64,000 nucleotides of DNA from Eledone cirrhosa (lineage: Eukaryota). The first letter of the stretch is position 1, and each line of letters starts with the position of its first letter. Positions 17,612 to 60,233 of the stretch are shown here, piece after piece. The position numbers and the translations under genes were made by a program. Where the stretch lies: the NCBI GenBank assembly GCA_964016885.1, contig OZ024742.1, positions 349,804,001 through 349,868,000 of the forward strand. Direction: 5' to 3'. The notes under the pieces were generated by a model. That model was not told the origin of the DNA. It ran no database searches and worked only from the letters and a program-made list of their open reading frames with translations.

Positions 17612-17613
<2 letters not shown>

Positions 17614-17891
17614 TTTCATTTATTGGCCACAAGGGCCGACATATAGGAGACAATACAAAAGACTGGGACAGTGGGGTTTTACAGAACAATCGAGTAAACA
17701 ATATGAATAACAATAACAAAGTAACAATAACAAAGTAACAATAAAGAAACAAGAAAATTACAACAAGAAAAAATTCCCCAATAGGGGGGATGACTACCTA
17801 GGGTTCGCTCAGGTACCCCACCAGTCCTGAACGACCCGACGCTTCGAGAGCACCCTGGAAGGGCACCCCTCTCCTCTTCAAATTTACCTAC

Positions 17892-20800
17892 CTACAGCCG
17901 CATGACCAGAGTAGGCCCACTCACACGGGCCACTCTCGCCACATTCACCCACCTTTCAGCAAATGTACTGGGGAGAAGCACTTCTCTCTCCACCCTCATC
18001 TTCCTTTCCAAGTGAAACTTGAAAAAGTTGATGAGGGATTGGCCGAAGAGAAAAGTGTCTGTCTTCAGTCCTTTCAACCTCGTCCACCATACAACCTCTT
18101 TCGCTACTGCCACCAGACAGAGGAAAATTGCCTGCCCTTCCTGGTCAAAAGAAGGCGGCGGGTCGATCTTCACTATGGACTCGGCCGATAGCTGGATCCG
18201 TTCTACACGCGACAACAGCTGTTCAACATAATTCCAGAAGTCAGTAATGCACGGACACTGGATGAGTGTGTGCAGAACGGTTTCGTCGCTCTGCGCACAT
18301 CTCGGGCAGGTCCGTCTGACAGCACTTCCGTGCCTGTAGAGTTTATATCGAACCGGCAGTGCCCCCGGTAGCACTGCCAAGCGAGGGATTTTTGGAAATT
18401 ATCCATCGTCCCCAGCTCGAAAGTCCTCGGGTACAGACTGGTTGGTTCGACTTCGTTGACTCCCAGAGCCTCTCTGAGTGCGTCGTCGCACTTGCCCATC
18501 AATAATTCTCTATAGAACTCGAGAGTGGAAGTTCCACTGACCGCATTGCCCGCCTGGTAGAGGGCAGTGAGTGCCTGGCAACATTCCAGATGCCAGTCAC
18601 CCAGTCTCGGTCTCTTCTTGACCCAGGACTGCAACTCAGTCAAAGAAACGAGCTGCGGAAAGGCCCGTCTGACAAACGGCGACCACACCTGTTCACCGTT
18701 TAGGCAGAATATCTGGAGATGCCGCAGCCTCAGCGCGTGCCTGCGCATCATTAGCCACGGCATGCCCAGCCCTCCACGTAAAGGGTGCTGGCAGCAGATG
18801 AACCGCCTCACCAGCGGAACCTGACCCCTCCACAAGAATTTGAAGAGGAGCTGCTCCAAGATGGCGAGGCGCGAACGGGGGCAAGGGACGACAGTCAGAC
18901 GGTAGATGACGGACGCGATGTACGCGTTCGCCACCTCCGCCCGACCTTTCAGTGATAGCTTCATCCCAGCCCATTTCTGGGTGAGACTGACTACCCTGTC
19001 CGTCACCTCGTCCCAATTCTTATCCACCTGGAGGTCTGGCCCGAACCAAACCCCTAGCAACTTTACCGGTCTGTCCGTCCAGCGCCTAACGACGCTGTTG
19101 GACGGCATGGACTTTCCTCTCCAGGTGCCGAGTTGCAAGCCCACTGACTTTTCCGGGTTAAGTTTTGCTCCCGTCAACCTTTCATATTCCTCCAATAAGT
19201 TGCCGACCACCTCGATTTCTGAGGTGTCCGACACCATCACGGTGTTGTCGTCCGCATAAGCCAACACAGCCTTTCCGCGTGCCGGTTCGAGCGGGATGCT
19301 CTGCAACAGCTCCAGTTTCCGCAGTAAAGGCTCGAGAGTCAATACGTACAGAAGGGAGGAAAGAGGGCACCCTTGACGGATCGATCGGGTGACCTGAAAC
19401 GGTTCCGAGAGGTGGCCATTAATTTTGACCATCGAGCAGGTGCCGCTGTGCATTGCAGCGATCCAGCTTCTGAAGACGGGGCCGAAGCCAGCCGCCTTGA
19501 GGACAGCCTCCAGGTACCGATGGTCGACCCTATCGAATGCTTTCGATTGATCTAAATTGATCAGAGCCCCACCGAAGCCAGGTTTACACCCTACCCTCTC
19601 TATGATGTATCGCATTAGGTGGAGGTTGTCGTGTATGGACCTGGTTGGGATTGCGCAAGTTTGCGCCTCCTCAACCAAATCCCCGACGACAAGCGCCAAC
19701 CTCTTCGTTAACACCCTCGCCAAAATCTTAAACTCTGTGTTGAGCAGAGTTATGGCCCTGAAATTGTCTAATGTGTTCCTTTGTTCTCGTCTTTCCTTAT
19801 CAGCGTCACTACGCCCCGGCTCACAGAACTGGGAATACTCCCGTTTTGCTGCCAGTTGCAGTAGAAGGCTTCGAGGAGATTGGAGAACAAGTCTGGCATA
19901 TTTACGTAAAGCTCGTAGGGCAGACCATCCAAACCGGGTGACTTGCGCCTCATGCAGCCCCCAAGGGCATCCTGAATCTCGGCTGAAGTAATTGGCTTTT
20001 CGCAGCGCCCAACGTCAGCCGTCGAGAGTTGCGGCAAGCCATCGAGGTAAGGACTGAAGTCCGCTACCATCTCTGACCCGTCACTTCCCCCGAACAACCG
20101 AGCAAAATGTTGGCGAAAGGCCTCACACATCCTCTTGGAATCGCTCAGCTCGTGCCCGTCTCGGTCCCTCAAAGACCGAATCGTGGTTTTATTACCACGC
20201 TGCGCCTCTGCTACGTGGGCCCATCGAACAGCTTTGGTTCTCTCGTTTCTCAGAGCACACGCCTTAGCTCTGACAATGCAACCTTCGTGTTTTGCATTGA
20301 AGAAATGGTCTAATGCCATTCTCGCCGCTAGCACATCAGTTGCAATGCCACTACCAATAGCCTCGTCTAACTTATCTACCAACTCCCCTCTCCTTTCTAT
20401 TTTTCTCTAATGCTACTTCTTTGCTAAACTCTATCGACATTACTCTAATCTCTCTTTTGAGAGCCCCCCACCATCTATTGTTGACGATTCCCCCTGTCAA
20501 CTTTTACTTAACTAAATTGTTGACCTGGTCCCTGTAAGCCTTACGTGCCGGAAATGACATGTTTAGCTTCCAGTAACCAGGTCCTAACCTACGCGTCTTA
20601 TCTAGGTCGACCATACAGATCACAAACTTGTGATCTGAATAGGCGACCGTTTCAAAACGTGGACAGCTTGCACTATTTCTGTCTATTTTCCTAGTGAATA
20701 TCCTGTCTATATACGATCTAGATGACACTATGCGGTTAGCCCAGGGCCACCCTGGAGCATTAGAGAAATCTAGTCGGTACCTGTCAGACAGTTGGAACTG

Positions 20801-21289
20801 GCTGATCAGGTTCTTGAGGCTTTGGCACCCCCCACTCCTATCGGATACTCCCACACAGTCCCAGCGTGCGTCCAAGATGCCGTTCCAGTCTCCCGCTAAC
20901 AGTAAAGGGCGAGACGTACCCAGAAAGGCTTCCAGGCGTCTAAAGAAGTCCGGCCGTCCTGCCCCAGTAGGAGCATAGACGGCAACCAGTCTAAAGGCAC
21001 CACCTTCGTTATTGTTCACGTCCAGCACCACCAATTTCCCGTCCGGGTCCCGGAAGATCGACCTTACCTCGAGATCCAGGCCTTTCCTAAACAACACAGC
21101 CACCCCGCCTCCCATTCCCGGCCGGCTAACAGATGCAAAGATCTGATAGTCGTCGAAAATGGGGGCTAGTGCGCGCGTGTCGGAAATTACATCCATTTCT
21201 ATAGACCTAAGGTCGTTGAGCAGGTGACCCTGCTTCCAGGACGATCCCAGGCCTCGAAAATTTAAACATCCTACTCTTAATACGGCCAT
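17892..21289 (-). pseudogene. ORF2 of element A: APE endonuclease, reverse transcriptase, C-terminal CCHC; broken by stops and frameshifts
   Basis: Motifs LNFRGL, VYAP, GDWN, YIDR, SDH (APE); KSPGLDG, LDQSKAFDRV, RQGCPLS, YADD (RT); CPRC..ETVLHTLIQC. Split over 4 ORFs. Confidence 0.92.
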
Positions 21290-21322
21290 GTTGGCAGGTT
21301 AAAAAGAGAGAGAGAGGAAGGT

Positions 21323-23275
21323 TTACTTACCTTCCGGGCTCTTGTGAAGGTCGGGTTGTTCGACCTCCATAGTTGGTGGGGTTTCTTTTGGGAACCCCTT
21401 TAAAAGTCTTGAAGTGGGTTTTACGTTCGGGGTTCCCACGTCCCGAGGAAAGCTGTCTCGTATTTCTTTGAATATATCGAGCGACATTCGCACCAGAACC
21501 AAATCTTCCGGCACGCGAAATATGCTATATTTTAAAAATTTCCCCCTCTTTTTGTATATTTTCACTTCGTATTACGAGGGCCATCAGTTCCTTGTTGGCC
21601 CTCCTGACGAGCACGAACTTTTGTATGTTTTGTTGGTGTGATTTTATTTGTTTGCGTGGCTGTGGTGGTGATGGTTTTGGTGGTATTGTTTTGGTTGTAT
21701 CTGTGTTTGTTGTGAGTGCGGTGTCTGTGGTTTCAGATGTTTGTGTGTATATTTGTTCTTGCGTCTGTTAAAGTTGTTTGCGGTTGGGGGATTCTGGTGG
21801 TGTTGATGTTGGTGTCATTGGAGAGATGTTTGCGTGGGTGGTGTCTGCGTTTTTTATTGTGGGTGATTTTGTGCTTTGTTGAGTTTTTTTTTTCTTTTTG
21901 TTTCCTTTTTTGTATTTTGGGGGATTTTGGTTTTCCCTCATCTTCACTACTGGTAGATGAGGGTTTTATGTCTGTAAGTGTGTCTGTATGTATGTTTATG
22001 GTTTTATTGGTGTGTGTATTTTTTGGTAGGGGGGGAGGGAGGGGGAATTTGACAGCTTTCCTCGTTTCCCCCCTGGGTGGTCAATGTTGGTGGTGGTCTT
22101 TCTATTGGTGTTGTTGTTGGTGGTTTTGCCGGTACTGGTGTTGGTTGTGGTTCTCGCCCCGGCGTCGGCAGCAGTGGAGCCTTTCGACCCCTTGCCTCTT
22201 TCGGCAGTTGAGGGCAGAAGGTTCGCAAATGGGTTTTTTCCCCACAAACAAAACACTGCGGCCTATTGCCTTCGGTCATAATGTGAATGGCCGTCCCATT
22301 CTGAAGGCGGATGTAGTCCGGGATTGTCTTCACATTCTCGGGCCTGATCTGGAGAAGGATCTCCAGATCAACCCCGGACCACTCCTCTCTGGCCATTCTG
22401 GTCACTTCTATAGGGACGGTATCCGTCCCCTCCACAATCACACATCCCAGAAGCCACCACATGTCAAGTCCTGGTGGGATTCTGGGAATGCGGAGACTTT
22501 TTCCCATGTGGGAGGGGTACATTTTGACATTGCTGGTTTTGCAAGGAGTCATAGCGTGTTTCATAGCGAGGGCTTCTGACTTGAACAACACCGAAATAGT
22601 GCCGTACTGTCTGCCTCTCTCTACTTATTCGGTGTTTTCTCTGATGCACCTCAGCGCGACTTCGACATCTTCTTGTGGGATTAAAGCTGCCCTTTTGGTT
22701 TGTGCTGAGATGCATCTATAATGCACCGTTCTGCGCTCCACTGCCTCAATAGCTTCTACCGGGACAGTTAAGTTGGCCCAGGTTTGCTCTTGCTTGATGC
22801 GCCTCCATGCCTGGGCCAACTTTTCATCTTTGTTTGAGAGGTCCATGTTGAAGCATGGCCTCTTTTTTGCTGCTGCGAAAGTGTTCTTCTTGTTTTCGTT
22901 GGGGTTGTTGTTGTTGTTCTTGTTGGTGTTATTGTTAGCACTGTCGCTGTTATCATTGTTGTCTTTGTTGCCACCGTTGTTCTCGGTGCAGTTGGTATTG
23001 TTGCTGTTGGTGTTGTCGCTATTTGTTTTCATGTTAGTGGTGTTGATATTGTTGTTGTATTTGTTATTTTTTTTTTTGTTATCTGTATTTTCGTTGTCGC
23101 TGTTACTGTCATTTTTTTCAAAATTAGAGTTCTTATTGGTATCATTGGTGTCTTTGTTTACCTTGTTTGTGGTGGTGTTTGTGTTATCAATGTGTGTTAA
23201 TTTCGCTGTAGCGTTCCTCTCAACTTCGTTGTGGCACGACAGCAGACATATCGCTGGAGGGCGTGGCTCAGCCAT
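21323..23275 (-). pseudogene. ORF1 of element A (N/T-rich N-terminus, zinc knuckle)
   Basis: CFVCGEKTHLRTFC knuckle; homologous to ORF1 of B and E (RG.QYG..SVLFKSEALA); internal stop and frameshift. Confidence 0.8.
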
Positions 23276-23740
23276 GTATTAACATGTAAAAAAATTCAAA
23301 TAATGGGGCCAAAAGGCCAAAATATTATACTTTCCCCTTCACAGGGCAAAGTCTAAGGGCTTATATCCCTTTCACAATAAGAAATATTTAACAACAAATA
23401 ATTTTAACAGGCAAATAAAGCGACTTACTGGGAGCGAGCAAAATACGTCCGCTTAGACCAATAATAATAACAATAATAATAATAATAATGCTTTCTTTAT
23501 TAACCACAGGGGTTTACATAAAGTAGACATTAAGGACAGTACAGGACAATACAGGACGGTACAAATGGGCATTTCTGCGTGTAAAAAACAAAAACAGAGG
23601 ATGTAACAAGAAAATAACAATGAAAAATTACCCAATACGGGGGAGACTTCCGAGGGACATTCGTGGAGAAAGCCCATTAAAAAGTCACAGTGACCCTGAA
23701 CACCAGGGCAAGTGCCCTCTCCCAGTTTTCCACCTTTAAT

Positions 23741-26700
23741 TTACAGACACATACTCAGAGTAGGCCCATTGACTCGTGCCATACTTGCCTCTCTAACCCA
23801 TCTTTCAACAAAATGCTGGGAAGAGAGCACTTCCCTCTCTACTCTGATTTTCCTTTTCAAATGAAATTTGAAAAAGTTAATCAGGGCATCACCGAAGAGG
23901 TAAGTGCTCGTCTTCAGCCCTTTCAAACGTGTCCATCATACTATCCCTTTCGCCATGGCCACCAGACAGATAAAAATTGCCTGCCCTTCCCGGCTAAAGG
24001 AAGAGGGCGGGGAAATCCTCACGATGGACTCAGCTGATAGCTGGATCCGTCCTACACGTGACAGCAGGTGTTCGACATAAACCCACAAGTCAACAATGCT
24101 CGGACACTGGACAAGTGCATGCAGGACGCTTTCATCGCCCTGCGCGCATCTGGGACATTCCCGGCTGACGGCACCTCCATGCCTGTAGAGGTTATCCCGA
24201 ACTGGCAAAGCTCCTCGGTAGCACTGCCAGGCCAGGGATTTCTGGAAGTTGTCCATAGGCCTCGGGCCGAAAGTTCTTCCGAAGAGATTGGCTAGTTGAT
24301 TTTCGTCGACGCCTAGAGTTTCCCCAAGAACGTCGTCGCTCTTCCCCTCCACAAATACTCTATAGAACGCCAAGGTGGATTTCCACTGATCACATTGCCC
24401 GATTGGTCGAGGGCTGTGAGCGCCTGAAGACATTCCAGTCTCCAAGCGCTCCCTCTCGGTCTTCGCTTGACCCAGGACTGCAGCTCGGTCAATGAGACGA
24501 GCTGGGGAAAGACGCGCCTAGCAAACGGCCACCACACCTGATCACCGTCGAGGAAGAGGTGGAGATGTCGTAGCCTGAGCGCGTGTCTGCGCATCATCAG
24601 CCACAGCTTACCCAGCCCTCCACGTAGCGGGTGTTGACAGCAGATGGACCGCCTGACATCGGAGCGCGTCCCTTCCACAAAAAGCGAAAGAGCAAACGCT
24701 CCAGCGCAGTCAGACGGGGCTTAGGATAAGGTACGACGGTCAGGCGGTAGCAGATGACAGACGCGATGTACGCGTTAGCCACCACCGCTCGACCTTTCAG
24801 GGATAGCTTCCTCTCCGCCCATTTCTGGGTGAGAGAAGCCACCCTGCTCGTCACCTCGTCCCAGTTTTTGTCCGTCTGGAGGTTCGGACCGAACCAGACC
24901 CCTAGCAATTTAACCGGTCCATCCGTCCAGCGCCCGACGACGCTGTTGGACGGCATGGACCTGCCTCTCCAGGTGCCGAGGTGCAGGCCCACTGACTTTT
25001 CCTGGTTGATCATTGCTCATATTCTCTTAGTGTAGTGCCGATCGCCTCGATGTGCTTGGCGTTCGACACCACTACGGTGACATCGTCCGCATATGCTGAC
25101 ACGGATCTTCCGCATCCTAGTTCGCGCGTGACGCCCCTCAACGTCTCCAGTTTGTGCGGTAATGGCTCGAGAGTCAATACGTACAAGTGGGACGAGAGGG
25201 GACATCCTTGGCGGACCGAGCGCAAGATGTTGAACGGTTCCGAAAGGTGACCGTTCACTCTCACTACAGAGCAGATGTCGCAGTGCAAGGCAGCGATCCA
25301 GCCTCTGAAGACGGGCCCAAAGCAAGCTGCCCTCAGGACTGCCGCTAGGTAACGATGGTCGACCCTATCGAAAGCTTTCGACTGATCTAAATTGATCAAG
25401 GAGCCACCCGTGCCAGGTTCCCTAGCTACCCTCTCTACGATGTATCGCATGAGGTGGAGGTTGTCGTGGTTGGATCTGTCGGGAATGGCGCATGTCTGCG
25501 CCTCTCCCACCAGACCACCAACGACAAGCGCCAACCTCTTTGCTAGCACCCTGGCCAAAATCTTGAACTTTGTGTTTAGCAGAGTTATGGGCCTGAAGTT
25601 ATCTATCTTATCCCCCTTGTTCGGATCCTTTCTCAGCAGCGCCACCGCTCCTCGGCTCACAGAGCTGGGAATTCTCCCGTTCTGTTGCCAGTTGCAGTAG
25701 ACGTCCGCCAAAAAGCCTCCGAAACAGTCTGGCATCTGTACGTAAAGTTCATAGGGCAGACCATCCAAACCAGGCGATTTACCCCTTGTGCAGCCAGTAA
25801 TTGCCTCCCATACTACAGCGGCTGTTATCGGCTTTTCGCAACACTCCGCCTCAGTGGCCGAGAGCCACGGCAGTGCGTCGAGGTAGACACTAAAGTCCAT
25901 CGCTCCACCCGGCCCGCCACTTCCCCCGAACAGCTGAGCGAAGTGTCGCTGAAAAGCTTCACACATTTGCCCGGGATCGAGTAGCATGCGCCCGTCGTGG
26001 TCCACCAAAGACCGGATCGTGGCTTTGTTGCCACGACGCGCCTCCGCCACTCGGGCCCATTGAACGGCTTTCCTCTACTCGTATCTGAGAGCACGCACCC
26101 TAGCTCTGACAACGCAGCCTTCGTTATTTGCATTGAATAATTGGTCAAGGGCTAATTTCGCCGCAAGTACGTCGGTCGCGAAGCCTTTGCTAAGCGCCTC
26201 GTCTAATTTTCTAACTAGTTCTCCCTCTGCTCTATTTTCCTCTATTTCTAAAGCCTTACTAAACCTAATGGACTCTATTCTAATCGCTCTTTTCAGAGCA
26301 AACCACCACTTGTTGTTGCCAATTGCCCCGTCAACGCCCGCTTAACTAGTTCGCTAATCCGGTCTCTGTTGGCCTTGCGCGCTGGTAAGGACGCGTTTAG
26401 CTTCCAGTAGCCGAGTCCTCGTCTATGAAGCCTATCTAAGTCAAGCACACAGATCACGAATTTGTGGTCCGTGTGGCTGACTATCTTGAATTGTGGACAG
26501 CCTATGCTAGACCTATCTATTTCCCTACAAAATACTCTATCTAGATATGATCTAGATGACCCTATGCGGTTTGTCCAAGTCCACATTGGCACATTCGGGA
26601 AATCCAATCGGTACCTGTCAGACAGTTCAAAACGCCTGAGCAGGTTGGTGAGGCTCTTGCAGCCTCCTCTCCTATCCGCTAATCCCATACAGTCCCAGCG

Positions 26701-27110
26701 TGCATCTAAGACCCCGTTCCAGTCGCCCACTAACACTAAAGAGCGGGACGTTCCAAGAAAGGTCTCCAGACGCCGGAAGAATCAGGCCGCTCTGCTCCTG
26801 TCGGGGCATGGACGGTCACTGGCCTGAAAGCTTGCCCGTCTCCGTTGGTCACGCCCAGCACCACCAACGTACCTTCTGGGTCCAGCGAGATCCAAACCTC
26901 TCAGAAAAAGCACAGCAACTCCTCCCCCCGATCCAGGACAGCTGGGAGATGCGTACACATCGTAGCCGCCGAAGATCGGTGCGAAGGCCCGGTCTCGCTG
27001 ATGGCCACTACATCTATGTTTAGTGACCTGAGGTCGTTGAGCAGGTGGCCCCGCTTCCATGACGACCCCAAGCCACGCGCATTTATGTTGCCTATTCTGA
27101 GTGAGGTCAT
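23741..27110 (-). pseudogene. ORF2 of element B (APE-RT-CCHC), multiple frameshifts
   Basis: NINARGL..ISET, GDWN, YLDR, TDH, FRPITLLN, LDQSKAFDRV, RQGCPLS, YADD, CPRC..HALVQC. Confidence 0.92.
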
Positions 27111-27144
27111 GTTGAAATGAATTGGAAAAGATGGGAAAGACCAC

Positions 27145-29055
27145 TTACCTTACTTCTCGTAGAGGAAGGATGGTTTCTCCATCCTTTTCACTGCTTGTGG
27201 CCTCCTCCAGAAGGATGTCCTTATAAATCCTCCTGGAGAGTGCTTGTCGGAAGTCTCCGTTGTCTTTGGGGAATTTTTGTTTTAGTGTCGTGTACGTTTT
27301 CTTTGTGATGCGAGTGATTTGTATGTGTGGAGGTGGTGTTAACTTTTGGGTTGTTGTGTAGTCTTTTTCTGTGATGCTGGTGTTGTGTTGGATGTAGTGT
27401 AATAATTGGTTGTTGTTCAAATTTAATGCTGTGTATTGTGTATCGTTTTGGTTGTTTTGTTTTGTTTGCGTTTGTTGTGGGTTGGTTTCTGTTTCGCTTT
27501 TTGGTGACTTTTGTGGTGTTGATGATGGTGGTGTTGGGGTTAATGATGGTGATGGTGTTGGTGTTTGTGGTGATGGGGTTGGGGATGCTGGTGCGGATGG
27601 TGGCATAGCTGTCCTAACTTTTTTGGTTGATACTTTATATGTTTCCATCTGTATTTTGTTTTTGGAGGGGGAAGGAAGAGAATTTTTTCTTTTTTGGTTT
27701 CTTTTTTTCTTTTTTCCTGATACCGTTTCCCACTCTTCGTCGTCACAATCTGTCTCCAGTTGCGATAGGTCGGGGAGTGGAAAATCCTCCACAGGCGTTG
27801 GTTTTGGTTGTGGCGTGGTGCTAGTTCTGGAGCGTTGGGTGGTGGTGGTGTTAGTTTTGCTACTGTTGCTGGGGTTGTTGCTGTTACAGTTGCTTCTGTT
27901 GTTGCTACTACAGTTGTTGCTGCCATTTCTGCTGCTGGTGGTGTTGATGGTTGAGTCACTGGGGTGGGTAAGAGAGGTGGCCTGAACCTTTTAGCCTGAG
28001 GGCAGAAAGCCCTTAGGTGGGTTCCTTCACCACAAACGACACACCTAGGCCTTCTGCCCTCGACGATACGGTGAGGTGGCTGCCGTCAGTAAGGTCTATT
28101 ACCTCTGAGATCTCCTCAATACTTTTGTGGTCCGCTTGGATCAGGAGCTCCATCCCAGATCCGGAAAAGTTTTCCTGCTTTTCTTTCGCAATTTAGATTA
28201 TCTTGGTGTCGGCTTCGATGCCGGCGACGACGGCGGCCATTAGCCAGGGAATTTCGATGGCCGGTGGAACGTGGGTCACCCTGATCTTCACGAGTCTCTG
28301 GCCACAATAGCTTGGGACGAGTGTAAAGTCGTCACTTCTAAATGGGGCCATGGAGTGTTCTCTGGCCTCCTGTGGTGTTCCAAAGAACACGTCCACGGTT
28401 CCATATTTCTGCCCACGTCTGATGTGGTTTTTTTTTGCCCACACATGTCCCAAAGCTTTTTGGATTTGGGACTCGTATGCTCGTTCCACTCGGCGCGATT
28501 TTATCTTAATCGTCCGATAAGACACGGTGCATAGGCGCCGATGCTCCATTTTATTAGGGGGAGGGGGGATGAGGCTGACCCTGTACCCATCTTTCTTTAC
28601 CATTCTCTTGGATTCATCTAATTCCTCCTGAGTTACCTGGATTGCTTCACACTTTTTTGCTACTCTGGCAAAAGACAGGGTGGTTTTCTTATTCTCATTG
28701 TTGTTGTTGGTGTTGTTGTTATCGTTATTTTTGTTGTTATTTTTAGTTTCAGTTGTGGTGGTGGTGGCGTCAGTGGTGTTCGGTGTGGAAGAGTCCATTC
28801 TGGGTGAATCCATTTCGATGTCACGAGATATTTAATTTTTTTCTTTGTTTCTGTTGTCGCTGTCGTGGTGGTGGGGGTGGCGGCTTTAACACCTGCAGTC
28901 ATTGGTAATGGCGGGAAATAAATGTCTGCATGAGACAAATTTAAATTATTGCTACTGCTTATATTTTTAGTGTTGGCAAACGTAGTAATATTTACAAAGG
29001 TGGTGTCGGTGTGAGGTGTTAATTTGTTAGGAAGGTGTGGCTGTGAGTGGTCCAT
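27145..29055 (-). pseudogene. ORF1 of element B
   Basis: RRGQKYGTVDVFF block; CVVCGEGTHLRAFC knuckle read by hand near 28000-28045; P/T-rich linker; frameshifted. Confidence 0.78.
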
Positions 29056-29271
29056 GATTTTTCAAAGAAATTTTTTTGCTTGATAATTATAAAAGTTTAA
29101 ATTTTGGGCTCAAGGCCCCAATATTTTTGAGTGTCCTTTTTTTCGAAAGCAAATTTTGTGACCTTATAAATAGTTAACAACAACAATTTTCCATAAATGG
29201 CAATTTTAAACAAACGAAAACAACAAACCTTTGCGCAGCTCTCGATGATACGATTTCCTAACTAGGTCGCC

Positions 29272-29764: not shown

Positions 29765-29766
<2 letters not shown>

Positions 29767-30600
29767 TTTCTTTATTAACCACAAGGGTTTACATAAAGTA
29801 GACATTAAGGACAGTGCAGGACAATGCAGTACGGTACAAATGGGCATTTCTCCGTGTAAAAAACAAAAACAGAGGATGTAACAAAAAAAAAACAATGAAA
29901 AACAGTGACCCTGAACACCAAGGCAAGTGCCCTCTCCCAGTTTTCCACCTTTAATTTACAGATATATACTCAGAGTAGGCCCATTCACTCGGGCCATTCT
30001 TGCTTCTCTCACCCATCTTTCAACAAAATGCTGGGAAGAGAGCACTTCCCTCTCTACTCTGATTTTCCTTTTCAAATAAAATTTGAAAAAGTCAATCAGG
30101 GCATCACCGAAGAGGTAAGTGCTCGTCTTCAGCCCTTTCAAACGTGTCCACCATACTATCTCTTTCGCCATGGCCACCAGACAGATAAAAACTGCCTGCC
30201 CTTCCCGGCTAAAGGAGGAGGGCGGGGCAATCCTCACGATGGACTCAGATGATAGCCGGATCCGTCCTATACGCGACAGCAGGTGTTCGACATAAACCCA
30301 CAAGTCAGCAATTTTCGGACACTGGACGAGTGCGTGCAGGACGGTTTCGTCGCCCTGCGCGCATCTCGGACATGCCCGGCTGACGGCACCTCCATGCCTG
30401 TAGAGTTTATCCCGAACTGGCAAGGCTCCTCGGTAGCACTGCCAGGCCAGAGATTTCTGGAAGTTGTCCATAGGCCCCGGCCCGAAAGTTCTTCCGAAGA
30501 TCTTGGCTAGTTGATTTTCGTCGACGCCTAGAGTTTCCCCAAGTACGTCGTCGCTCTTCCCCTCCACTAATCCTCTATAGAACGCCGAGGTGGAGTTTCC
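29765..30600 (-). mobile_element. 5'-truncated Tx1-like copy C (family B)
   Basis: ORF 29956-30567 is nearly identical to the C-terminus of B ORF2; same 3' end; (AAT)n on both sides (29720-29764, 30602-30672). Confidence 0.92.
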
Positions 30601-30601
30601 A

Positions 30602-35285: not shown

Positions 35286-35357
35286 TTGTTTCTACTTTAG
35301 GCACAAGGCCAGCAATTACCAGTGCATTACTGGTACTTTATTTTATCGACCCCGTAA
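35286..35357 (-). mobile_element. SINE 3' fragment (family of 46851-47040)
   Basis: tgtttctactttaggcacaaggccagcaatt...tcgacccc, shared with the other copies. Confidence 0.75.
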
Positions 35358-35407
35358 AATAATAATAATAAAGAGTAATAATAATAAAGAGTAATGATAA
35401 TAATAAT

Positions 35408-36299
35408 GATTTCTTTATTAACCACAAGGGTTTACACAAAGTAGACATTAAGGACAGTACAGGACAATACAGGACGGTACAAATGGGCATTTCTGCGTGT
35501 AAAAAAAACAAAGAATAGAGGATGTATAAAAAAAAACAATGGAAAATTCCCCAATAGGGGGGGGGGGAATTTCCGAGGGCCATCGTGGAGAAAGCCTATT
35601 AGAAAAAGCCACGGTCACCCTGACCATCAGGGCAAGTGCCCTCTCCCAGTTTCCCACCTTCAATTTACAGGCATATACTCACCCATCTTTCAACAAAATG
35701 CTGGGAGAGAGCACTTCCCTCTCTACCCTGATTTTCCTTTTCAAATGAAATTTGAAAAAGTAAATCAGGGCATCACTGAAGAGGTAAGTGCTCGTCTTCA
35801 CCCCTTTCAGACGCGTCCACCATACCATCTCTTTCACCATGGCCACAAGACAGATAAAAACTGCCTGCCCTTCTCTGCTAAAGGAAGAGGGCGGGGCGAT
35901 CCTCACGATGGACTCAGCTGATAGCTGGATCCGTTCTACACGCGACAGCAGGTGTTCGATATAAACCCACAAGTCAGCAATGCTCGGACACTGGACGAGT
36001 GCATGCAGGACGGTTTCGTCGCCCTGAGCGCATCTCGGACATGCCCGGCTGACGACACTTACGTGCCTGTAGAGTTTATCCCGAACTGGCAAAGCTCCTC
36101 GGTAGCACTGCCAGGCCAGGGATTTCTGGAAATTGTCCATAGGCCCCGGCCCGAAAGTTCTTCCGAAGAGATTGGTTAGTTGATTTTCGTCGACATTAAG
36201 GACAGTACAGCATTTCTGCGTGTAAAAAAAACAAAAAACAGAGGATGTAATAATAGAACAATGAAAAAATTCGCCAATAGGGGGGAGACTTCCGAGGCC
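35408..36299 (-). mobile_element. 5'-truncated Tx1-like copy D (35408-36194) fused to a second 3'-UTR fragment (36192-36299), family B
   Basis: MDNFQKSLAWQCYRGALPVRDKLYRH..CPRC; same 3' terminus; followed by (AAT)n 36300-36328. Confidence 0.88.
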
Positions 36300-36328
<29 letters not shown>

Positions 36329-36330
<2 letters not shown>

Positions 36331-36755: not shown

Positions 36756-36781
36756 TTGTTGACTTTAATAGAATGTATACA

Positions 36782-39353: not shown

Positions 39354-39389
<36 letters not shown>

Positions 39390-40232
39390 ATGCGACGACG
39401 TTCTCGGGGAAACCCTATGCATCGAGGAGGACTAACTCACCAGTCCGTTCGGGAGGACTTCCGTCCAAGGCCTATGGAAAACTTCCAGAGGTCTCTGGTC
39501 TGGTAGTGCTACCGAGGAGCTCTACCAGTTCGAAACAAAATCTACAGGCACAGACGCCCTGGAAGAGATCCTGCCAAAAGGACCTGTCCAAGATGCGAGC
39601 AGGACACCGAAACCGTTCTGCACGCAATTGTTCAGTGCCCAGGGGTGACCGACCTATGGAATTATGTTGAACAGCTACTGTCACGTGTGGGACGCATCCA
39701 GTTGTCAGCCGAAACCATCGTGAGAATCACCCCGCCGCCTTCATTTAAGAATGAAGGAGATGAGATTTTCCTATGCCTGGTGGCTATGGCGAAAGAGGTA
39801 ACATGGAGGACGAGGTTAAAAGGACTGAGGGCAAGCACCTTTCTCTCCGGATAACAACTCAACCCCTTCTTTAAGTACCACTTCAGAAGGAAGGTGAGAG
39901 TGGAGAGAGAGGGGCTACACCCCAGTAAATTCGCTGAAAGGTGGGTGAATGTGGCGAAAATGGCCCGAGTGAATGGGCCTTCTCTGTATATAAACCTGTA
40001 GGTTGAAGAAGATAAACAGAGGGAAGACGGGAACACCTACAAAACGTGTTCCTGGTGTTGAGGGTTGTTCTATCCACGGGGTGTAAAACAACCCCGCAGT
40101 AGCGTTACCCCCTATTGGGGATTTCAATTGTTATTTTATTATATATTGTTTATTGTTATTTATTAATGTTAAAGTTATATGATTTTTATGTAAAACCCTC
40201 TCTGTCACGTCTTGTAATGTCCCTTTTTTGTA
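39390..40232 (+). mobile_element. 5'-truncated Tx1-like copy G next to (ATCT)n (39340-39388)
   Basis: Closely similar to 58450-59470 (DLWNYVEQLLSRVGRIQLSAE); 3' tip missing. Confidence 0.88.
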
Positions 40233-40441
40233 CGCAGATGCGAGAAAGACCACAAACCCTCCATCTCTATTCTACTTTTGAAAAGCATAAGAACTGTGAA
40301 GCCGGTAAAGGAAACAAATAAATATTCTTAAAAAGACTCCAGTTACATTTTACATTTCTTTTCCTTATACTTTCACCCGTGCAGGACATCACATGGTTTT
40401 CTTTTTCTTTTGTTTTTTTAATGAAAAAGCCTCATATTCTT

Positions 40442-45792: not shown

Positions 45793-45855
45793 AACCCTAA
45801 CCCTAACCCTAAACCTAACCCTAACCCTAATCCTAACCCTAACCCTAACCCTAAC
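45793..45855. repeat. Interstitial telomere-like (CCCTAA)n, ~10 units with variants
   Basis: taaccctaaccctaaccctaaacctaaccctaaccctaatcctaaccctaaccctaaccctaac. Confidence 0.9.
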
Positions 45856-46850
45856 ACTAGTAGAGGAAGATCTGAGTGGAGGTGGTGAGATCTGAAATCC
45901 CTGAAGCTGTGGAGGAATGGTGCGCTCAAAATGAAACATCTAACACAATCAAGTGTCAAACGAGGGGCGTAAAATGGCGATAATGTCCTAAAATTATGAT
46001 AAACTTGTAGACGTCAATGTCTTCTTTACTGTAGAATAATTGATATTTATTGTCTATAGATGCTTAGTAATTATTGGTATTGTTATTGAGTATTGATGGT
46101 GAAGATTATCAGCAGATGTAGTGAGATATAGCCGATATCATCTAATACACGATGTTAGTAGCTTTATTCTTCTGATCAATCCGATTTTTATCTATGCCAA
46201 GGTCAGCATCTAAGCTTGCAACACTATGTCTGCAAACCTGGTAATTAGATCATGCATGGAACACCTTTGATCATAGGTTCACTTGATTAGGTCTCAGCTG
46301 GAAGTGAAACAGCAGAAACATCAACATTCCTAATACTTCCATATATCTCCAAAATTCTTCAATACAACCACAACTATTATCATTAACATAAGTGAAACAT
46401 TACAACCACCAATAGCAACTACCTCTATCACCAAACAAAATGATGTTAGCAGAGAAAAGTTTTGCCTTTCATCCTTTTGGCGTCGATTTTTCTGGAATAT
46501 CTCTTTCTCATTTCATCTCTTTCTCTCCTTCTCTGAAAAAAAATCTGCTGTACTGAGGCCTGGAGAGGGATGCGCTCCGCCAGTTTTAAAAATGCTCTAA
46601 GTAACACCGTATGTCAATACGGTGCTCCTTCGACTCCATCAGGTGTTACGGTATCAAACCATTTCATACCATACAAAAACTGTCGACAATAAAACAGGAC
46701 CAGACATAGCTGTGTGGTAAAAATATAAACTGCAAGGTACAGAACAAGTATGAAATACACTTCACCACTAATTTACCAATATGTTATCAATATGTTATGA
46801 AGAGAAATTATATAGAGGCTTAAAGACATATATTTAGTCGGAATTAAAAC

Positions 46851-52064: not shown

Positions 52065-52344
52065 TTATACCAATATTTATTATACTTGATCAAAGTAAAG
52101 TAAACAGAAGACAGAAGAAAAAAAGAAGAAAAAGAGAATTAGGTGAAAAGTTTTTTGTTTATTTAAAAGAAAATTGAATAAACCCTTGGCTTAGAAGTTG
52201 AATTAAATTTATATAAAAATACCTCAATAAAATATATTGTCAACCACAGCAATAACAATAACAAGAACTGGACCTAAAGTATGGGAACACATTGTAGCAC
52301 AAAATATGGAAATATTTGTTAATGTTCAATGGTTCCATATTTTC

Positions 52345-52416
<72 letters not shown>

Positions 52417-52493
52417 CGCTTTCTGTCTGACGCGTGAAACATCGCCGGTAAGATTTGGAAATATTTGTTAATGTTCAATGGTTCCATATTTTC

Positions 52494-52565
<72 letters not shown>

Positions 52566-52756
52566 CGCTTTCTGTCTGACGCGTGAAACATCGCCGGTAA
52601 GATTTTTTTGTTAATTTATATACGAAAAACAGAACAATTATTTGAAAAAATATATTATTTTGTAGATTAACCCCCAAGCTGAATTGTCAGCTGGGTGGTA
52701 ATCTCATTTTATTTTAAAAATTGTTTTAAAATACCAAATTTTGCAAACTAAATAAC

Positions 52757-54583
52757 TTGAACAACACAAGAACGCTGGAGAACGTCAATAGAGAAGAGAG
52801 AGAGAAAGAGGCAGATATTAACGTTATATCTGCTTCTGCTACTATGGACGTCGCCATAGATACGACTGTCAACAAAGAGGAAAAAATATTACCACTTGAA
52901 GATTTTAAAATGTCTACCGTCGAAGCGGAGAAAAATAACACTAACACACAGAAAAACACAGGAATTAAACCCATTAACATACATACACATGAAAAAGACA
53001 TCAACAACTCCACAGATACATCTACACATAATGTTTCACCTCGTCAAGAAACTGAGATTTCCAACACCGAGGCTAACAACGACAACAACAACAACAACAA
53101 CAACAGCAACACCACACAAAAAAAAAATGTCTTTCGCTGAAACAGTGAACAAAAAACAAGATTTTATAAATCTTGATATCTCCAATGCAAGAGATATGCT
53201 CCAGCAAGGGAGAACATTTGTAACTTTCGAAGAAAAAGGTGGGTTTAGAATTAACTCACCCCTTGAAATAAAGGAAGACACAATTCGCAGATCAGTCACC
53301 TTTAGGACTGTGTCAAATTCCACAAGAAAGCCGACATTTGTTAGCCAAGCAGATATAGAAGCTACTTTCAAGGAAATTCTAGCAAATATCGATTTTCTCC
53401 AGCGAGGAAAACAGTACGGAAGTGTTTCCGTACTGTTTAAAAGCGAGGCACTCGCCCAAAAACATTATGTGACACCAATGGTGTCAAAAGCATACACCTT
53501 TTCCCCTACATACATGGGAAAAAAGACACAAAAAATAAAAATAAAAAACATATCCCCAAACATTAACATCTGGTGGATCTTGGCTGGCTTCGTAGAGCCA
53601 GAAACTGATATGATTCTTTCGATACGAAAATCTATTCGACAAAGGTGGGCGGGTACTGATTTGGAGATTCTGTTGCAAATGAAACCGTAGAGAATCTCCA
53701 AAATACCCGAAAGAGTCGTCATCGATGATAACAACAAAATAAACATTTCGGTAGAAGGACGAAAATTTCATTGCTTTCGCTGTGGTAGCACAGTATACCT
53801 AAAAGCCTCTTGTCCACAAACACACAACAACAACATCATTAAAAAAAACACTATTACCAACACCAACACCAAAACAACCACCACCACCACAAGTACAACG
53901 ACAGACGAAACGAGCAACCACACCAAACAGACACTCAACTAACAACAACAGAAAAAACAGAGACAACACCCCTGAAGAACACAGCCCCACTCCATCCCAC
54001 TCCATCAAATACTACCACAAACACACACACCGAAACACCATCACCACACAACATACCCCTATCCCACACACCTGACGATAATTATTCATCATCTGATGAA
54101 GCTGCTTCTCCTTCTTTAAGTGAAGAAGAGGGAGAGCCGTGGAAATCTAAAAACAAAAAAAGAGACACCACAAAACCCCCAAATCTCCAATCACCAATAC
54201 CATCACACAACCACAGACACAAACAACAAAGAAAACTCCCGGACGAACAACAAACTGAAACAACACAACAAAAACACAAACAACAATACGCATACATCAA
54301 CACAAACAACAAGAGTTTGATGGAGGTCATCTCCCAAAACCCCAAGGTGGAGACGGAGGGCAAAACTTTCGTCAAGGCAGAATCGTCTCCACACCTTAAA
54401 CTTATAAGGGTTTCTATGGAGATATATAGTGACCTAAAAAATAAATTTTCACAGGACGTGGGCAACCCCTGCCAGAAACCCATCAACCGCATCCTGTTAA
54501 AATATTTCCCCACCCCACCCAACATCCCATCCAGCACCCAAATGGAGATTGAACAACCGGATCTCCAGGAAACGAAAAGGTAA
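52757..54583 (+). pseudogene. ORF1 of element E
   Basis: QRGKQYGSVSVLFKSEALA; CFRCGSTVYLKASC (decayed knuckle); C-terminal MEIEQPDL like A (MEVEQPDL). Start uncertain. Confidence 0.78.
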
Positions 54584-54625
54584 GTGCACCTTTTCGTCCT
54601 TTTTCTCCAACTTTTCTTCACCAAC

Positions 54626-57600
54626 ATGGCTAATTTACGAGTTTGAACCGCGAATGTGCGTGGCCTAGGGATGCCATGGAAACAGGGCCAACTTTTAAAC
54701 GACCTTAGGTCACACAGTATGGATGTGATAGCCATCACCGAGTCCAGGATACACAACAGGCAGCAACTAACCCCCATCTTCGATGACTGTGAGATCTACG
54801 CATCTCTCTCTCAGCCAGGAGGTGGAGGTGTAGTGGCTGTCATGTTTTGGAAGAACCTGGACGTCGAAGTTTAGCAAGTACACTTGGACCCGGAGGGTAG
54901 ACTGGTAGTCCTAAACGTGAACAGTATTGGAGGTGGAGCCTTCAGACTGGTGGCCATTTATGCCCCGACCGGGCAATCGCAATCACAGTCAGACTTCTTT
55001 AAGCGTCTAGAGTCTTTTCTCGGAACGTCTCGCTCCTTACTTTTAGTGGGGGACTGGAATGGTATCCTAGATGCACAATGGGATTATGTGGGAGCATGTC
55101 CCAGTAGAGCGGGGTGCAACAGCCTCAAAACTTTAATCGGCCAATTCCAACTGGCCGATAGGTATCGACTGGATTTCCCGACTGCACCACAGTGGACGTG
55201 GGCAAACCGCAACGGGACATCTAGATCGTATTTAGATAGGTTCTTCATTAGAGAAAGGGACAAGGAGATGTTAAGCTGTCCACGAATGCACATGGTTGCC
55301 TATTCAGATCACAAGTTAGTCGTCTGCTTAGTCAACCGTGATAGAATATATAGACAGGGACCCGGATACTGGAAGCTGAACGTGTCGGTGCCGGCACGTA
55401 AAGTTTACAGTGAACGGATAAGTAGACTAGTCAAGCAACAGTTAACGGGAGCCATCGTCAACAATAGATGGTGGTTCTCTCTCAAGAAAGCAATTAGAAT
55501 AGAATCGATAGGGTATAGCAGAGAGTTAGCCTTAGAGAAAAACAGAATAGAAAGAGAACTAGTAGCCAAGGTAGAGGAGGCACTTAGAAGTGGCAACGCG
55601 GCTAGAGTGTTAGCGTCGAGAACGGCACTGGACCAGCTCCTCGATGCGAAACACGAAGGTTGCGTGGTCAGAAGCAAAGCACGTGCTCTAGGAAACGAAG
55701 GAGCGAAAGTTGTCAGCTGGGCCCGAGTGGCGGAGGCAAAAAGTGGCAACAAGTCCACGATTCGGTCTTTGAAAGACCAAAACGGACGTGTGCTACTTGA
55801 CCCCAAGCAAATGTGTGCGGCCTTTCAGCGGCACTTTGCGCGACTGTTTGAGCAGAAAGACGGTGAACCGAACAGGGCAATGGACTTTAGTTCATACCTC
55901 CACGGCCTGCCGCGTCTCTCGAACACGGACGCCGAGTTCTGCGAAAGACCGATCACGGACACTGAGATACGGGACGCTCTGGGCCGCTGCGGGAAACGCA
56001 AGTCACCCGGTCTAGATGGTCTACAATACGAGTTTTACATAGGCATGCCAGACTTGTTCTCTGGCGTCCTCGAAGCCGTCTATTGCAATTGGCAGCAGAA
56101 CGGGAGAATTCCCAGTTCTGGAGGCAAGGGCGTAGTAACGCTGATCAGGAAATACGAGAATAAGGGGGACGAAATTAACAACTTCAGGCCCATAACTCTG
56201 CTCAACACAGAGTTAAAGATTTTGGCCCAGGTGCTAGCGACAAGGTTGGCACTTGTCGACGAGAACCTGGTAGTGAAAACGCAAACGTGTGCAATCCCGA
56301 CCAGGTCCATACACGACAACCTGCATCTCATGCGATACATCATAGAGAGGGTCGGTAGTAAACCCGGTTTCGGTGGGGCTCTGATCAATTTGGATCAGTC
56401 TAAGGCATTCGATAGGGTCGACCATCGATACTTGGAAGCGGTTCTCAAGGCGGCCGGTTTCGGTCCCGTGTTCAGAGGATGGATCGGGGCGATGCACAGC
56501 AACATCTGCTCGAGGGTCAAGGTAAACGGCTACCTATCGGAGCCGTTGGCAATCACGCGTTCCATTCGACAGGGGTGCCCTCTCTCCTCCATTCTGTATG
56601 TATTGACTCTAGAGCCACTACTGCGGTAATTGGAGCTGTAGCAGGGCATCCCTCTAGAACCGGGACTGCGCAAAGCGACGTCGGCTTATGCCGACGACGT
56701 TACGGTAATGGTGTCGAGCCCCTCGGAAATCGGAGTGATCGGCAACTTACTGAAAGAATACGAAACACTGACGGGAGCAAAACTAAACCCGGACAAGTTT
56801 GTCGGTTTGCAGCTCGGTACGTGGAGAAGAAACCGATGATGTCCGACAGCGTCGTTGGATGCTGGACGGACGGACCCGTGAAATTGCTCGGGGTTTGGTT
56901 CGATCCAGACCTCCAGGTGAAGAAAAACTGGAACGAGGTCGCGGCCAAGGTGTTTGCACTCACCCAGAAGTGGGCAGAGTGCAAACTGTCCTTGAAAGGT
57001 CGAGCGGAGGTGGCGAACACTTTCATAGCGTCCGTCATCTACTACAGCTTGACTGTCGTGCCTTGTCCCCGTGAACACCTCGCCAAGATAGAACGCATGC
57101 TCTTCCAGTTTCTGTGGAAGAAGCCGGCTCCGCTGGTGAGGAGATCCGTCTGCTGTCAGCACCCTTCCAACGGAGGGCTGGGAATGCCGTGGCTGATGAT
57201 GCGCAAATAGCGCTGATGTTGCTCATCTCCAGGTATTCCTCACCGACCCCCAACCGGTGTGGGCACCGTTTGTGAGACAGGCTTTCCCACAGCTCGTCTC
57301 GCTAACGGAGCTGCAGTCCTGGGTCAAGAAAAGACCGAAAACGAAGGGCGTCTGGCACATTGAATGCGCTCAGGCGCTCATAGTTCTCTGGCAAGCGGGC
57401 GCAGCAATCAGTGGAAACTCCATTTCGACATTCTATAGAGGGATTGTACGTTACAAGGGCGACGACGTGCTCGGAGAGACTCTGGGCGTCGAAGACGATG
57501 AGCTCACCAGTCTGTTTGGTAGGACTTTCCGCCCGGGACCTATGGACAACTTCCAGAGGTCCCTAGCCTGGCAGTGCTACCGAGGAGCTCTACCGGTTCG

Positions 57601-58069
57601 TGACAAGATCTATAGGCACGGACGCCCCGGCAGGGATCCTTCCAAGAGGACGTGTCCAAGATGCGCGCAGTATATTGAAACAGTCCTGCACGCAATTGTA
57701 CACTGCCCGGGCGTAACCGACCTGTGGAATTATGCAGAACAACTGCTGTCGCGTATGGGACAAATCCAGTTGACTGCCGAGTCCATAGTAAGGATCAAAC
57801 CGCCAGCCTCTTCCAAAAACGAAAGAGAGGCGGTTTTCCTCTGTACGGTGGCTATGGTGAAAGAAGTTATATGGTGGACGAGGTTGAGAGGACTGATGAC
57901 AGATGCCTTTCTCTCCGGACAACAATTGATTCCCTTCTTTAAGTATCACTTTAGAAGGAGAATCAGGGTGGAGAGAGAGGCACTGCACCCCAGTAAATTT
58001 ACTGAAAGGTGGGTGAATGAAGCGAAAATGGCCCGAGTGATTGGGCCTTCTCTGTTTATAAGCCTGTAG
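54626..58069 (+). pseudogene. ORF2 of element E (APE-RT-CCHC), several stops and frameshifts
   Basis: NVRGLG, IYAP, GDWN, YLDR, SDH, FRPITLLN, LDQSKAFDRV, RQGCPLS, YADD, CPRC..HAIVHC. Confidence 0.92.
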
Positions 58070-58302
58070 GTTGAAGAAGAGAGAAAAAGGAAGAAAGGAG
58101 CACTTGCACAACACGCTCCTGGAGTTGAGGGTTGTTCTATCGACGGGGTATTAAACAACCCATTTGTGGCGCCTCCCCCCTATTGGGGATTTCGATTGTT
58201 GTAATTGTTTGTTTTTATATTTTTTACACGACTGTATGTAAAATCCCCGGCATGTCTTTGTATTGTCCCCTTTTCTTGTGCGCCCTTGTGGCTAATAAAG
58301 AA

Positions 58303-58346
<44 letters not shown>

Positions 58347-58349
<3 letters not shown>

Positions 58350-59490
58350 GAATGCCTTCAGGCGCCCACAGCCCTCTACCAAGCGGAAACGGCAATCAGC
58401 GGAGACTCCACCTCGATATTCTATAGGGGATTAGTGGAGGATAAGTGCAATGACGTTCTCGGGGAAACTCTAGGCATCGAGGAGGGCGAACTGACCAGTC
58501 TGTTCGGGAGGACTTTCCATCCAGGGCCTATGGATAACTTCCAAAGGTCTCTGGCCTGTCAGTGCTACCGAGGAGCTCTACCAGTTCCAGACAAAATCTA
58601 CAGGCACGGACGCCCTAGCATAGATTCTGCCAAAAGGACCTGTCCAAGATGCGAGCAGGACATCGAAACCGTTCTGCACGCAATTGTTCAATGCCCAGGG
58701 GTGACCGACCTGTGGGATTATGTCGAACAGCTACGGTCACGTGTGGGACGCATCCAGTTGTCAGCCGAGTCCATCGTGAGGATCACCCCACCACCTTCAT
58801 TTAAGAATGTAGGAGAGGCGGTTTTCCTCTGTCTGGTGGCTATGGCGAAAGAGGTAATATGGTGGACTAGGTTAAAAGGACTGAGGACAAGCACCTTTCT
58901 CACCGGACAACAACTTATCCCCGTCTTTAAGTACTACTTCAGAAGGAAGGTGAGAGTGGAGAGAGAGGTGCTACGCCCCAGTAAATTCGCTGAAAGGTGG
59001 GTGAATGTGGCAAAAATGGCCCGAGTGAATGGGCCTTCTCTGTATATAAACCTGTAGGTTGAGGAAGATAAACAGAGGGAACACGAGAATACCAACAAAA
59101 CGTGTTCCTGGTGTTGAGGGTTGTTCTATCCACGGGGTGTAAAACAACCCTGTAGTAACGTTCCCCACTATTGGGGATTTCAATTGTTATTTTATTATAT
59201 ATTGTTTATTGTTATTGTTTCTACTTTAGGCACAAGGCCAGCAATTACCCAGTGCATTACTGGTACTTTATTTTATCGACCCCGTAAGGATGAAAGGCAA
59301 AGTCAACCTCGGCGGGATTTGAACTCAGATCGTGAAGGGACGTAACTATGCTAGAAAGCATGGCGTCTGACTCTCTACCAATACTGCCAATCCACCGCAA
59401 TGTTAAAGTTATATGATTTTTATGTAAAACCCCCGCCGTCACGTCTTGTAATGTCCCTTTTTTGTACGCGCCTGTGGCATATAAAGAAAG
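58347..59490 (+). mobile_element. 5'-truncated Tx1-like copy F, tandem to E in the same (ATCT)n, with a SINE in its 3' UTR
   Basis: ORF 58434-59057 is an ORF2 C-terminus; ends tgtggcatataaagaaagatatctaactat. Confidence 0.9.
59215..59398 (-). mobile_element. SINE inserted in the 3' UTR of copy F
   Basis: Full SINE sequence; the homologous UTR of copy G (~40150-40175) lacks it. Confidence 0.88.
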
Positions 59491-59635
59491 ATATCTAACT
59501 ATTTATTACTCTCTTTATATCTCTCTATATCTATATAAATCTATACACCACACACACACACACACATATATATATATAGAAATAGCCGTCGAAACGGCTT
59601 GAGCTCTGCCGTCGGGATCTTGAATATTTTCTTAT

Positions 59636-60233
<598 letters not shown>

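What the first reader, a model, noticed from the sequence alone, without database searches (positions are those of the whole stretch)
52495..59490. Target switch: a sister Tx1 family inserts in (ATCT)n rather than (ATT)n
Seen: E, F and G all adjoin (TCTA)n, yet E ends in essentially the same TGTGGYTAATAAAGAAATC terminus as the ATT-targeting copies. By eye E is closer to A than A is to B (RT: IIERVG.KPGFGGALIN in A and E versus IVERVAREPGTGGSLIN in B; ORF1 VLFKSEALA and ME.EQPDL in A and E). Before the catalytic Y.DR motif, A and B read NRI(V/G)SSRS while E reads NRNGTSRS. Established: this hairpin loop contributes to target choice in APE-type retrotransposon endonucleases. Inference: a recent specificity change, possibly traceable to a few residues.
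Basis: partly seen in the sequence, partly recalled or inferred. Interest (0 to 1): 0.78.

Follow-up and report, generated by a model that had tools for sequence, protein, structure and literature searches.

The report
Old microsatellite target split in LINEs
Related jumping-gene families in this genome insert either into ATT repeats or into ATCT repeats and almost never cross over; the split is likely ancient rather than recent, and one residue at the tip of the DNA-cutting enzyme's probing loop follows the target and is predicted to be one of several causes.

Summary
Of 298 distinct 3' ends, families A, B, J and N sit on (ATT)n in 161 of 164, and E, F, I and H on (ATCT)n in 121 of 134, with one cross-over. 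Full-length copies have the repeat on both sides and duplicated target sites begin in it, so it is a target and not just a tail. E is not A's sister (p-AU 9e-102): four ATCT families form one clade (78-85% ORF2 identity to E), and Argonauta proteins fall nearer each side, which points to an old split. The direction of the switch is unresolved. Only the tip, Ile/Leu versus Ser/Thr, tracks the target; it aligns with L1 Pro197. But it is one evolutionary event among 40 co-varying endonuclease sites. Verdict: new targets for a known kind of element (microsatellite-specific, Tx1-like), with a clean, untested residue hypothesis and intact young copies on both sides.

The parts
52566..58302 (+). Element E, full-length but decayed copy of an (ATCT)n-targeting Tx1-like LINE
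   Evidence: 96% nt identity in ORF2 to an intact family copy
52494..52565 (+). (ATCT)18 at the 5' side of E
58303..58346 (+). (ATCT)11 between E's 3' end and F's truncated 5' end
52844..54583 (+). E ORF1 remnant, broken by frameshifts and stops
   Evidence: translations
54626..58069 (+). E ORF2 remnant: APE endonuclease, RT, C-terminal zinc-binding region; stops and frameshifts
   Evidence: Pfam on an intact family copy
55205..55228 (+). E endonuclease hairpin NRNGTSRS; tip codon 55211-55213 is Asn here, Ser in 35 of 37 family copies
58347..59491 (+). Element F, 5'-truncated copy of a second ATCT family (80% nt to E), with a SINE-like insert at about 59213-59398
39389..40235 (+). Element G, F-family fragment after (ATCT)6 (39365-39388); terminus missing
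17612..23460 (-). Element A, full-length decayed copy of an (ATT)n family
20714..20737 (-). A hairpin NRIVSSRS (family majority NRIGSSRS, 20 of 24)
23490..29271 (-). Element B, full-length decayed copy of an (ATT)n family, in tandem upstream of A
26548..26571 (-). B hairpin NRIGSSRS (52 of 56 family copies)
29765..30601 (-). Element C, 5'-truncated B-family copy with (ATT)n on both sides
35407..36300 (-). Element D, rearranged B-family fragment with ATT repeats on both sides

Best explanation
Two lineages of Tx1-like LINEs in this genome insert into different microsatellites, (ATT)n and (ATCT)n; they likely split once and long ago, and their endonucleases likely make the choice through several surface loops, of which the hairpin tip is one. 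Shown: the family-to-target match, the target-site duplications, the single ATCT clade, the tip residue pattern. Inferred: both lineages nick the bottom strand at a T-A step (AAT/AAT and AGAT/AGAT), so the targets first differ two bases past the nick (A versus G); Ile/Leu at the tip would pack on the A-T pair, while the smaller Ser/Thr would admit the guanine amino group in the minor groove; three other DNA-facing loops (residues 61-66, 117-118, 154-165) changed on the same branch and probably contribute; a few repeat bases at the RNA 3' end probably help priming. Each insertion leaves repeat on both sides, so later copies stack into tandem arrays of same-target families.
For: 3' flanks 161 of 164 ATT and 121 of 134 ATCT; 5' flanks of full-length copies A 11 of 12, B 38 of 38, E 12 of 12. 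12 of 14 ATCT-family duplications that include unique sequence begin with (T)ATCTA. ATCT families are one side of a branch in EN, RT, C-terminal and whole-ORF2 trees (97/100 whole; 98/100); ORF1 agrees (E to I 58%, H 52%, F 45%, A 38%, B 35%). Tip: A Ile 24 of 24, B Ile 55 of 56, N Leu 19 of 20; E Ser 35 of 37, F Thr 4 of 4, I Ser 10 of 10, H Ser 4 of 4. N (ATT flanks) and E loops differ at the tip only. Tip aligns with L1 Pro197 and residue 154 with Arg155; Pro197 and His198 enter the minor groove (PMC8565326 passages). Argonauta P0030 nests in the ATCT clade (97/95) and P0055 is nearer B (69% vs 63-64%). Endonuclease swaps redirect TRAS1/SART1, and R1Bm recognition is spread over many residues (PMC1919474 passages).
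Against: One branch is one contrast: 40 EN, 25 linker, 23 RT and 51 C-terminal sites separate the groups equally well, and the stem is not longer in EN than in the C-terminal part (about 21% of tree length in each; RT 13%). Other placements of P0030 are not rejected (p-AU 0.08-0.17) and its target is unknown. P0029 and P0031, from other sources, have Ser at the tip and Tyr154 on an ATT-like backbone, targets unknown. L1 loop grafts did not transfer specificity in a modular way (PMC1950540, PMC8565326 passages). Nick position is read from junctions with microhomology and could be off by a base. Copies were top-scoring hits and their neighbours, not a random sample; tandem stacking inflates the 5' counts.
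Confidence: 0.68

Rival explanations
1. The RNA 3' end sets the target: the poly(A) signal lies a few bases from the terminus, so transcripts would carry flanking repeat units that pair with the nicked strand, while the endonucleases nick T-A steps broadly. Target is then inherited from the donor's flank.
For: AATAAA sits 4-6 nt from the end in the families seen. L330, an I copy in (CA)n, has an ATCT unit at its 3' junction that is absent from its 5' flank; L199 has extra repeat bases at the 3' junction. Family termini end in target-like bases.
Against: Several junctions have no repeat beyond the terminal ATC (L113, L115, L040, L143). The C two bases upstream of the inferred nick, outside the primer, is kept at 4 of 5 non-microsatellite sites (L117, L156, L162, L199; not L125). 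Target has stayed fixed across families 15-25% apart despite off-target donors.
Confidence: 0.15
2. One reading: E recently switched from an A-like ATT family through a few loop residues.
For: RT tree joins A/N with the ATCT clade (95/99); tip residue tracks the target.
Against: E with A/N rejected, p-AU 9e-102; E-A only 75% nt identical, E-F/I/H 79-84%; 40 EN differences; Argonauta proteins near both sides; ATT families as one clade not rejected (p-AU 0.27 and 0.36), so even the direction is open.
Confidence: 0.05
3. The repeats are element tails that expanded after insertion, not targets.
For: Many 5'-truncated copies scored 'neither' at their apparent 5' boundary (for example A 21 of 22); tandem stacking can put a neighbour's tail at a 5' end.
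Against: Many of those boundaries are internal deletions with family sequence upstream. Solo full-length copies have the repeat on both sides, and duplications with unique sequence contain the motif in both copies.
Confidence: 0.05
4. The tip residue is a passenger: specificity lies wholly in other loops or in DNA-shape reading, and the tip pattern reflects descent only.
For: Single contrast; L1 H198A lowers activity without changing specificity and shape reading dominates (PMC1950540, PMC8565326 passages); P0030 has Asn and P0029/P0031 Ser at the tip.
Against: The tip changed within each group yet kept its class (Ile/Leu, Ser/Thr) while its neighbours are nearly invariant; hairpin mutations alter R1Bm and TRAS1 cleavage.
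Confidence: 0.3

Closest known systems
Kibi ((TC)n) and Koshi ((TTC)n) Tx1 families of teleosts, and crocodilian Tx1 families in (TTCC)n/(TTTC)n (PMC4494074, passages and section 15 read; PMC3812793 passages)
   Same: APE-type LINEs in which related families target different microsatellite units; target shifts within a Tx1 lineage are therefore already known.
   Different: Targets here are (ATT)n and (ATCT)n, the host is likely an octopod (nearest named proteins are from Argonauta hians), and many intact near-identical copies exist on both sides. Relationship to Kibi/Koshi was not tested.
Human L1 endonuclease and its LTx/LR1 loop grafts (PMC1950540, PMC8565326; passages read)
   Same: Same fold (TM 0.85), same 9-residue hairpin length, inferred T-A scissile step.
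   Different: About 20% identity; L1 has only a weak preference; His198 corresponds to Gly here.
Dong (R4 clade) elements in (TAA)n (PMC3812793 passage)
   Same: Same trinucleotide repeat as the ATT families; a Dong-like element appears to share the ATT arrays in this window.
   Different: Restriction-like endonuclease (recalled), unrelated targeting domain.
TRAS1, SART1, R1Bm (R1 clade; PMC1919474 passages, PMC7265360 abstract)
   Same: Sequence-specific APE endonuclease with a hairpin that affects cleavage.
   Different: Other clade; telomeric or rDNA targets.

Membership tests
APE-type non-LTR retrotransposon (L1 group) | ORF2 with N-terminal APE endonuclease, RT and C-terminal zinc-binding region | tested here: met
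   PF03372, PF00078, and PF13966 (the last below its cut-off in E, above in B); model matches L1-EN
APE-type non-LTR retrotransposon (L1 group) | Two ORFs, 5' truncation, target-site duplications | tested here: met
Tx1 clade | RT phylogeny groups with Xenopus Tx1L, Keno, Kibi, Koshi rather than with L1 | not testable with these tools
   No named Tx1 reference came back from three homologue searches or the Atlas. The label rests on architecture, on LTx tying with L1 ORF2p as best PDB sequence hit and on target specificity.
Microsatellite-specific Tx1 (Kibi/Koshi type) | More than 20% of flanks of one repeat type (criterion in PMC4494074) | tested here: met
   78-100% per family
Microsatellite-specific Tx1 (Kibi/Koshi type) | Descent from the Kibi/Koshi lineage | not testable with these tools
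   No Kibi/Koshi sequences on hand
   p-AU 9e-102
   RT tree supports it (95/99); whole-ORF2 support 67/99; ATT monophyly not rejected
Endonuclease-determined targeting | Isolated endonuclease nicks its own target selectively | not testable with these tools
   Needs biochemistry

The most novel reading that the evidence does not exclude
One residue at the hairpin tip (Ile/Leu versus Ser/Thr, the L1 Pro197 position) is a minor-groove switch that reads A versus G two bases past the nick and is enough to move a LINE endonuclease from (ATT)n to (ATCT)n, the first natural single-residue code for APE retrotransposon targeting; P0029/P0031 would mark a second, independent change.
Probability: 0.15. 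Interest if true: 0.8.

Novelty: new variant of a known kind. Interest (0 to 1): 0.48.

Why it matters
How APE-type retrotransposon endonucleases gain and change sequence specificity is still open: L1 loop grafts gave no modular answer. This genome offers about eight related families on two targets that share the scissile step, with intact, near-identical copies on both sides (B, E, I), a short list of candidate loops, and one pair of loops differing by a single residue. That makes the question directly testable and bears on engineering site-directed LINEs. It also shows that a cephalopod-like genome's ATT and ATCT microsatellites are active insertion sites that seed tandem LINE arrays.

Tried and rejected
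Searching the own genome with P0031's endonuclease for a Ser-tip family on an ATT-like backbone returned only B-type copies (best 77%; all 40 loci read were B or B-like with Ile, one Met). L221 ended in (GTT)n and suggested a third target, but its family (N) ends in ATT repeats in the copies with a readable terminus. An EN-specific rate burst on the ATCT stem was looked for and not found. Two metagenome scans for relatives with readable flanks found nothing. Contigs of four coded organisms cover E-like 3' sequence, some nearly identical in the 3' UTR, but are cut at the repeat, so targets in other species remain unknown. The single-sequence fold was unusable (pLDDT 42); the alignment-based one was used. 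EN and C-terminal trees rooted on distant outgroups were unresolved. No earlier scan notes existed. Literature searches showed no paper on ATT- or ATCT-targeting Tx1 in cephalopods; Repbase, Kojima and Fujiwara 2004 and the figure and supplements of PMC4494074 could not be seen and may list such targets.

Full report
What is in the window. BLAST and translation show seven related LINE copies: A (17612-23460, minus) and B (23490-29271, minus) full length and in tandem, C and D as B-family fragments, E (52566-58302, plus) full length, F and G as fragments of another family. A-D lie in (ATT)n and E-G next to (ATCT)n. All are decayed. An intact family copy has an APE endonuclease, RT and zinc-binding region, and its modelled endonuclease (pLDDT 92) matches L1-EN best (TM 0.85). 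'Tx1' rests on this architecture and on target specificity; no named Tx1 reference was available for a tree. The nearest named proteins are from Argonauta hians, so the 3.0 Gb host is likely an octopod; this is inference.

Is the target difference real? Ten own-genome searches and eight fetch calls gave 342 loci. Among loci L001-L323 and the window, 298 distinct 3' ends fell into eight families. A 54 of 56, B 94 of 94, J 8 of 8 and N 5 of 6 are followed by ATT repeats, none by ATCT. E 41 of 44, F 25 of 32, I 42 of 45 and H 13 of 13 are followed by ATCT repeats; one (L113) scored ATT and 12 neither. Random window positions score 59 and 48 of 5000. The sample is top hits plus neighbours, not random, and some N copies were labelled A by their 3' ends. 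Full-length copies also have the repeat at the 5' side (A 11 of 12, B 38 of 38, E 12 of 12), partly through tandem stacking, but solo copies show it too. Fourteen ATCT-family copies have duplications that include unique sequence; 12 start with (T)ATCTA, L153 is near-cognate and L115 off-target. Two A/N-type copies give duplications starting ATTATT. So the repeats are targets, and one to two units suffice.

Where is the nick? ATT families end in GAAATC before ATTATT, and ATCT families vary at the base before ATCTAT. The simplest reading is a bottom-strand nick at T-A in both (AAT/AAT, AGAT/AGAT). This is inferred and could be off by a base. The targets then first differ two bases past the nick, A versus G, and that G-C pair is kept at 4 of 5 non-microsatellite sites.

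Is E a recently switched sister of A? No. Family majority sequences give E-F 85, E-I 83, E-H 78, E-A 72, E-B 69 and A-B 75% over ORF2; E is nearer A than A is to B only in RT. E, F, I and H are one side of a branch in every domain tree (98/100), ORF1 agrees, and E with A/N is rejected (p-AU 9e-102). The RT tree nests the ATCT clade beside A (95/99), which would make ATT ancestral, but ATT monophyly is not rejected (p-AU 0.27, 0.36). Direction is open. For age: Argonauta P0030 nests among ATCT families (97/95 with I and H) and shares their YVGACPD motif; Argonauta P0055 is nearer B. At diagnostic sites P0030 has 6 ATCT and 2 ATT states, P0055 5 and 10. If inheritance was vertical and the host is not an argonautoid, the split predates argonaut origins (Argonauta-Tremoctopus 46 Ma, 29-68, PMC7104719 passage). 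Against: P0030 has a long branch, other placements are not rejected (p-AU 0.08-0.17), and its flanks are unknown. What is recent is activity: B, E and I have many intact copies at 99% identity.

Does the loop track the target? The loop aligns without gaps to L1's bB6-bB5 hairpin, with residue 196 at Pro197. Across distinct copies the tip is Ile in A (24 of 24) and B (55 of 56), Leu in N (19 of 20), Ser in E (35 of 37), I (10 of 10) and H (4 of 4), Thr in F (4 of 4). The second difference, Ser versus Thr two residues on, does not track: N has Thr on ATT, F and H have Ser on ATCT. N and E loops thus differ only at the tip. In the L1-DNA structure Pro197 and His198 enter the minor groove at +1 to +3 (PMC8565326 passages). 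A Ser/Thr tip admitting the guanine amino group is a plausible mechanism, but it is my inference; Pro197 itself contacts +1.

Limits. All this is one branch. Forty EN positions separate the groups, clustered in loops 61-66 (near L1 Lys70), 117-118 (after Asn118) and 154-165 (154 aligns with Arg155), and the stem is no longer in EN than in the C-terminal region. Published grafts changed L1 nicking without transferring specificity (PMC1950540 passages), while R1Bm and TRAS1 data favour cooperative recognition with a hairpin role (PMC1919474 passages). Two proteins from other sources carry a Ser tip on an ATT-like backbone; their targets could confirm or break the rule, but no such family was found in this genome. 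RNA-primer pairing may add to targeting: L330 has an ATCT unit at its 3' junction only.

Comparison and verdict. Tx1 families that target different microsatellites, and shifts among them, are known (Kibi, Koshi, crocodilian families; PMC4494074 passages and section 15, PMC3812793 passages). Five searches showed no report of ATT- or ATCT-specific Tx1 in cephalopods; the O. vulgaris repeat paper lists active L1-Tx1 families and its main text has no occurrence of 'target' (PMC13282606). Repbase and supplements were not seen. This is a new variant of a known kind: real, well supported as a target split, likely old, with a sharp but untested residue hypothesis. Interest 0.48.

Noticed in passing
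window 52308-52605: Exact 149-base tandem duplication covering unique flank, (ATCT)18 and the first 40 bases of E.
   Followed up: no
window about 31700-35286 (+): A different LINE (RT and zf-RVT hits) ending in (TAA)n, with fragments at 29326-29516 and 36326-36760; by a recalled PD-(D/E)xK-like motif it looks Dong/R4-like and shares the ATT arrays in the opposite orientation.
   Followed up: partly
window about 59213-59398 (-) and many loci: Abundant SINE-like element whose 3' end resembles the LINE terminus; of 56 distinct ends 23 run into (ATT)n and 33 into neither class, the printed ones with a short ATT run; one (L112) continues into a LINE terminus followed by ATCT. Possible partner of the ATT families.
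   Followed up: partly
L204, L305, L316: B-family ORF2 occurs with three unrelated 5' ends and at least two ORF1 types about 50-55% identical: 5' module exchange.
   Followed up: partly
G000 C1:441089370-441138168 and others: Head-to-tail arrays of intact B copies at about 6 kb spacing, up to eight hits in one run; B, E and I have many copies with a neighbour at 99% or more (30 of 40, 13 of 19, 9 of 10), so they are probably still active.
   Followed up: partly
L258: I-family ends with a poly(A) run right after the terminus, inside an amplified unit; may mark the polyadenylation site.
   Followed up: no
window 1-14773: 15-base satellite, about 985 copies.
   Followed up: no
window 45792-45859: Interstitial (TAACCC)11 telomere-like repeat.
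   Followed up: no
window about 59775-60115: Long inverted repeat pair seen by eye, MITE-like.
   Followed up: no
ORF2 residues 401-700: Sites uniting A with the ATCT clade outnumber those uniting A with B in RT but not in EN or the linker: possible old recombination between lineages.
   Followed up: partly
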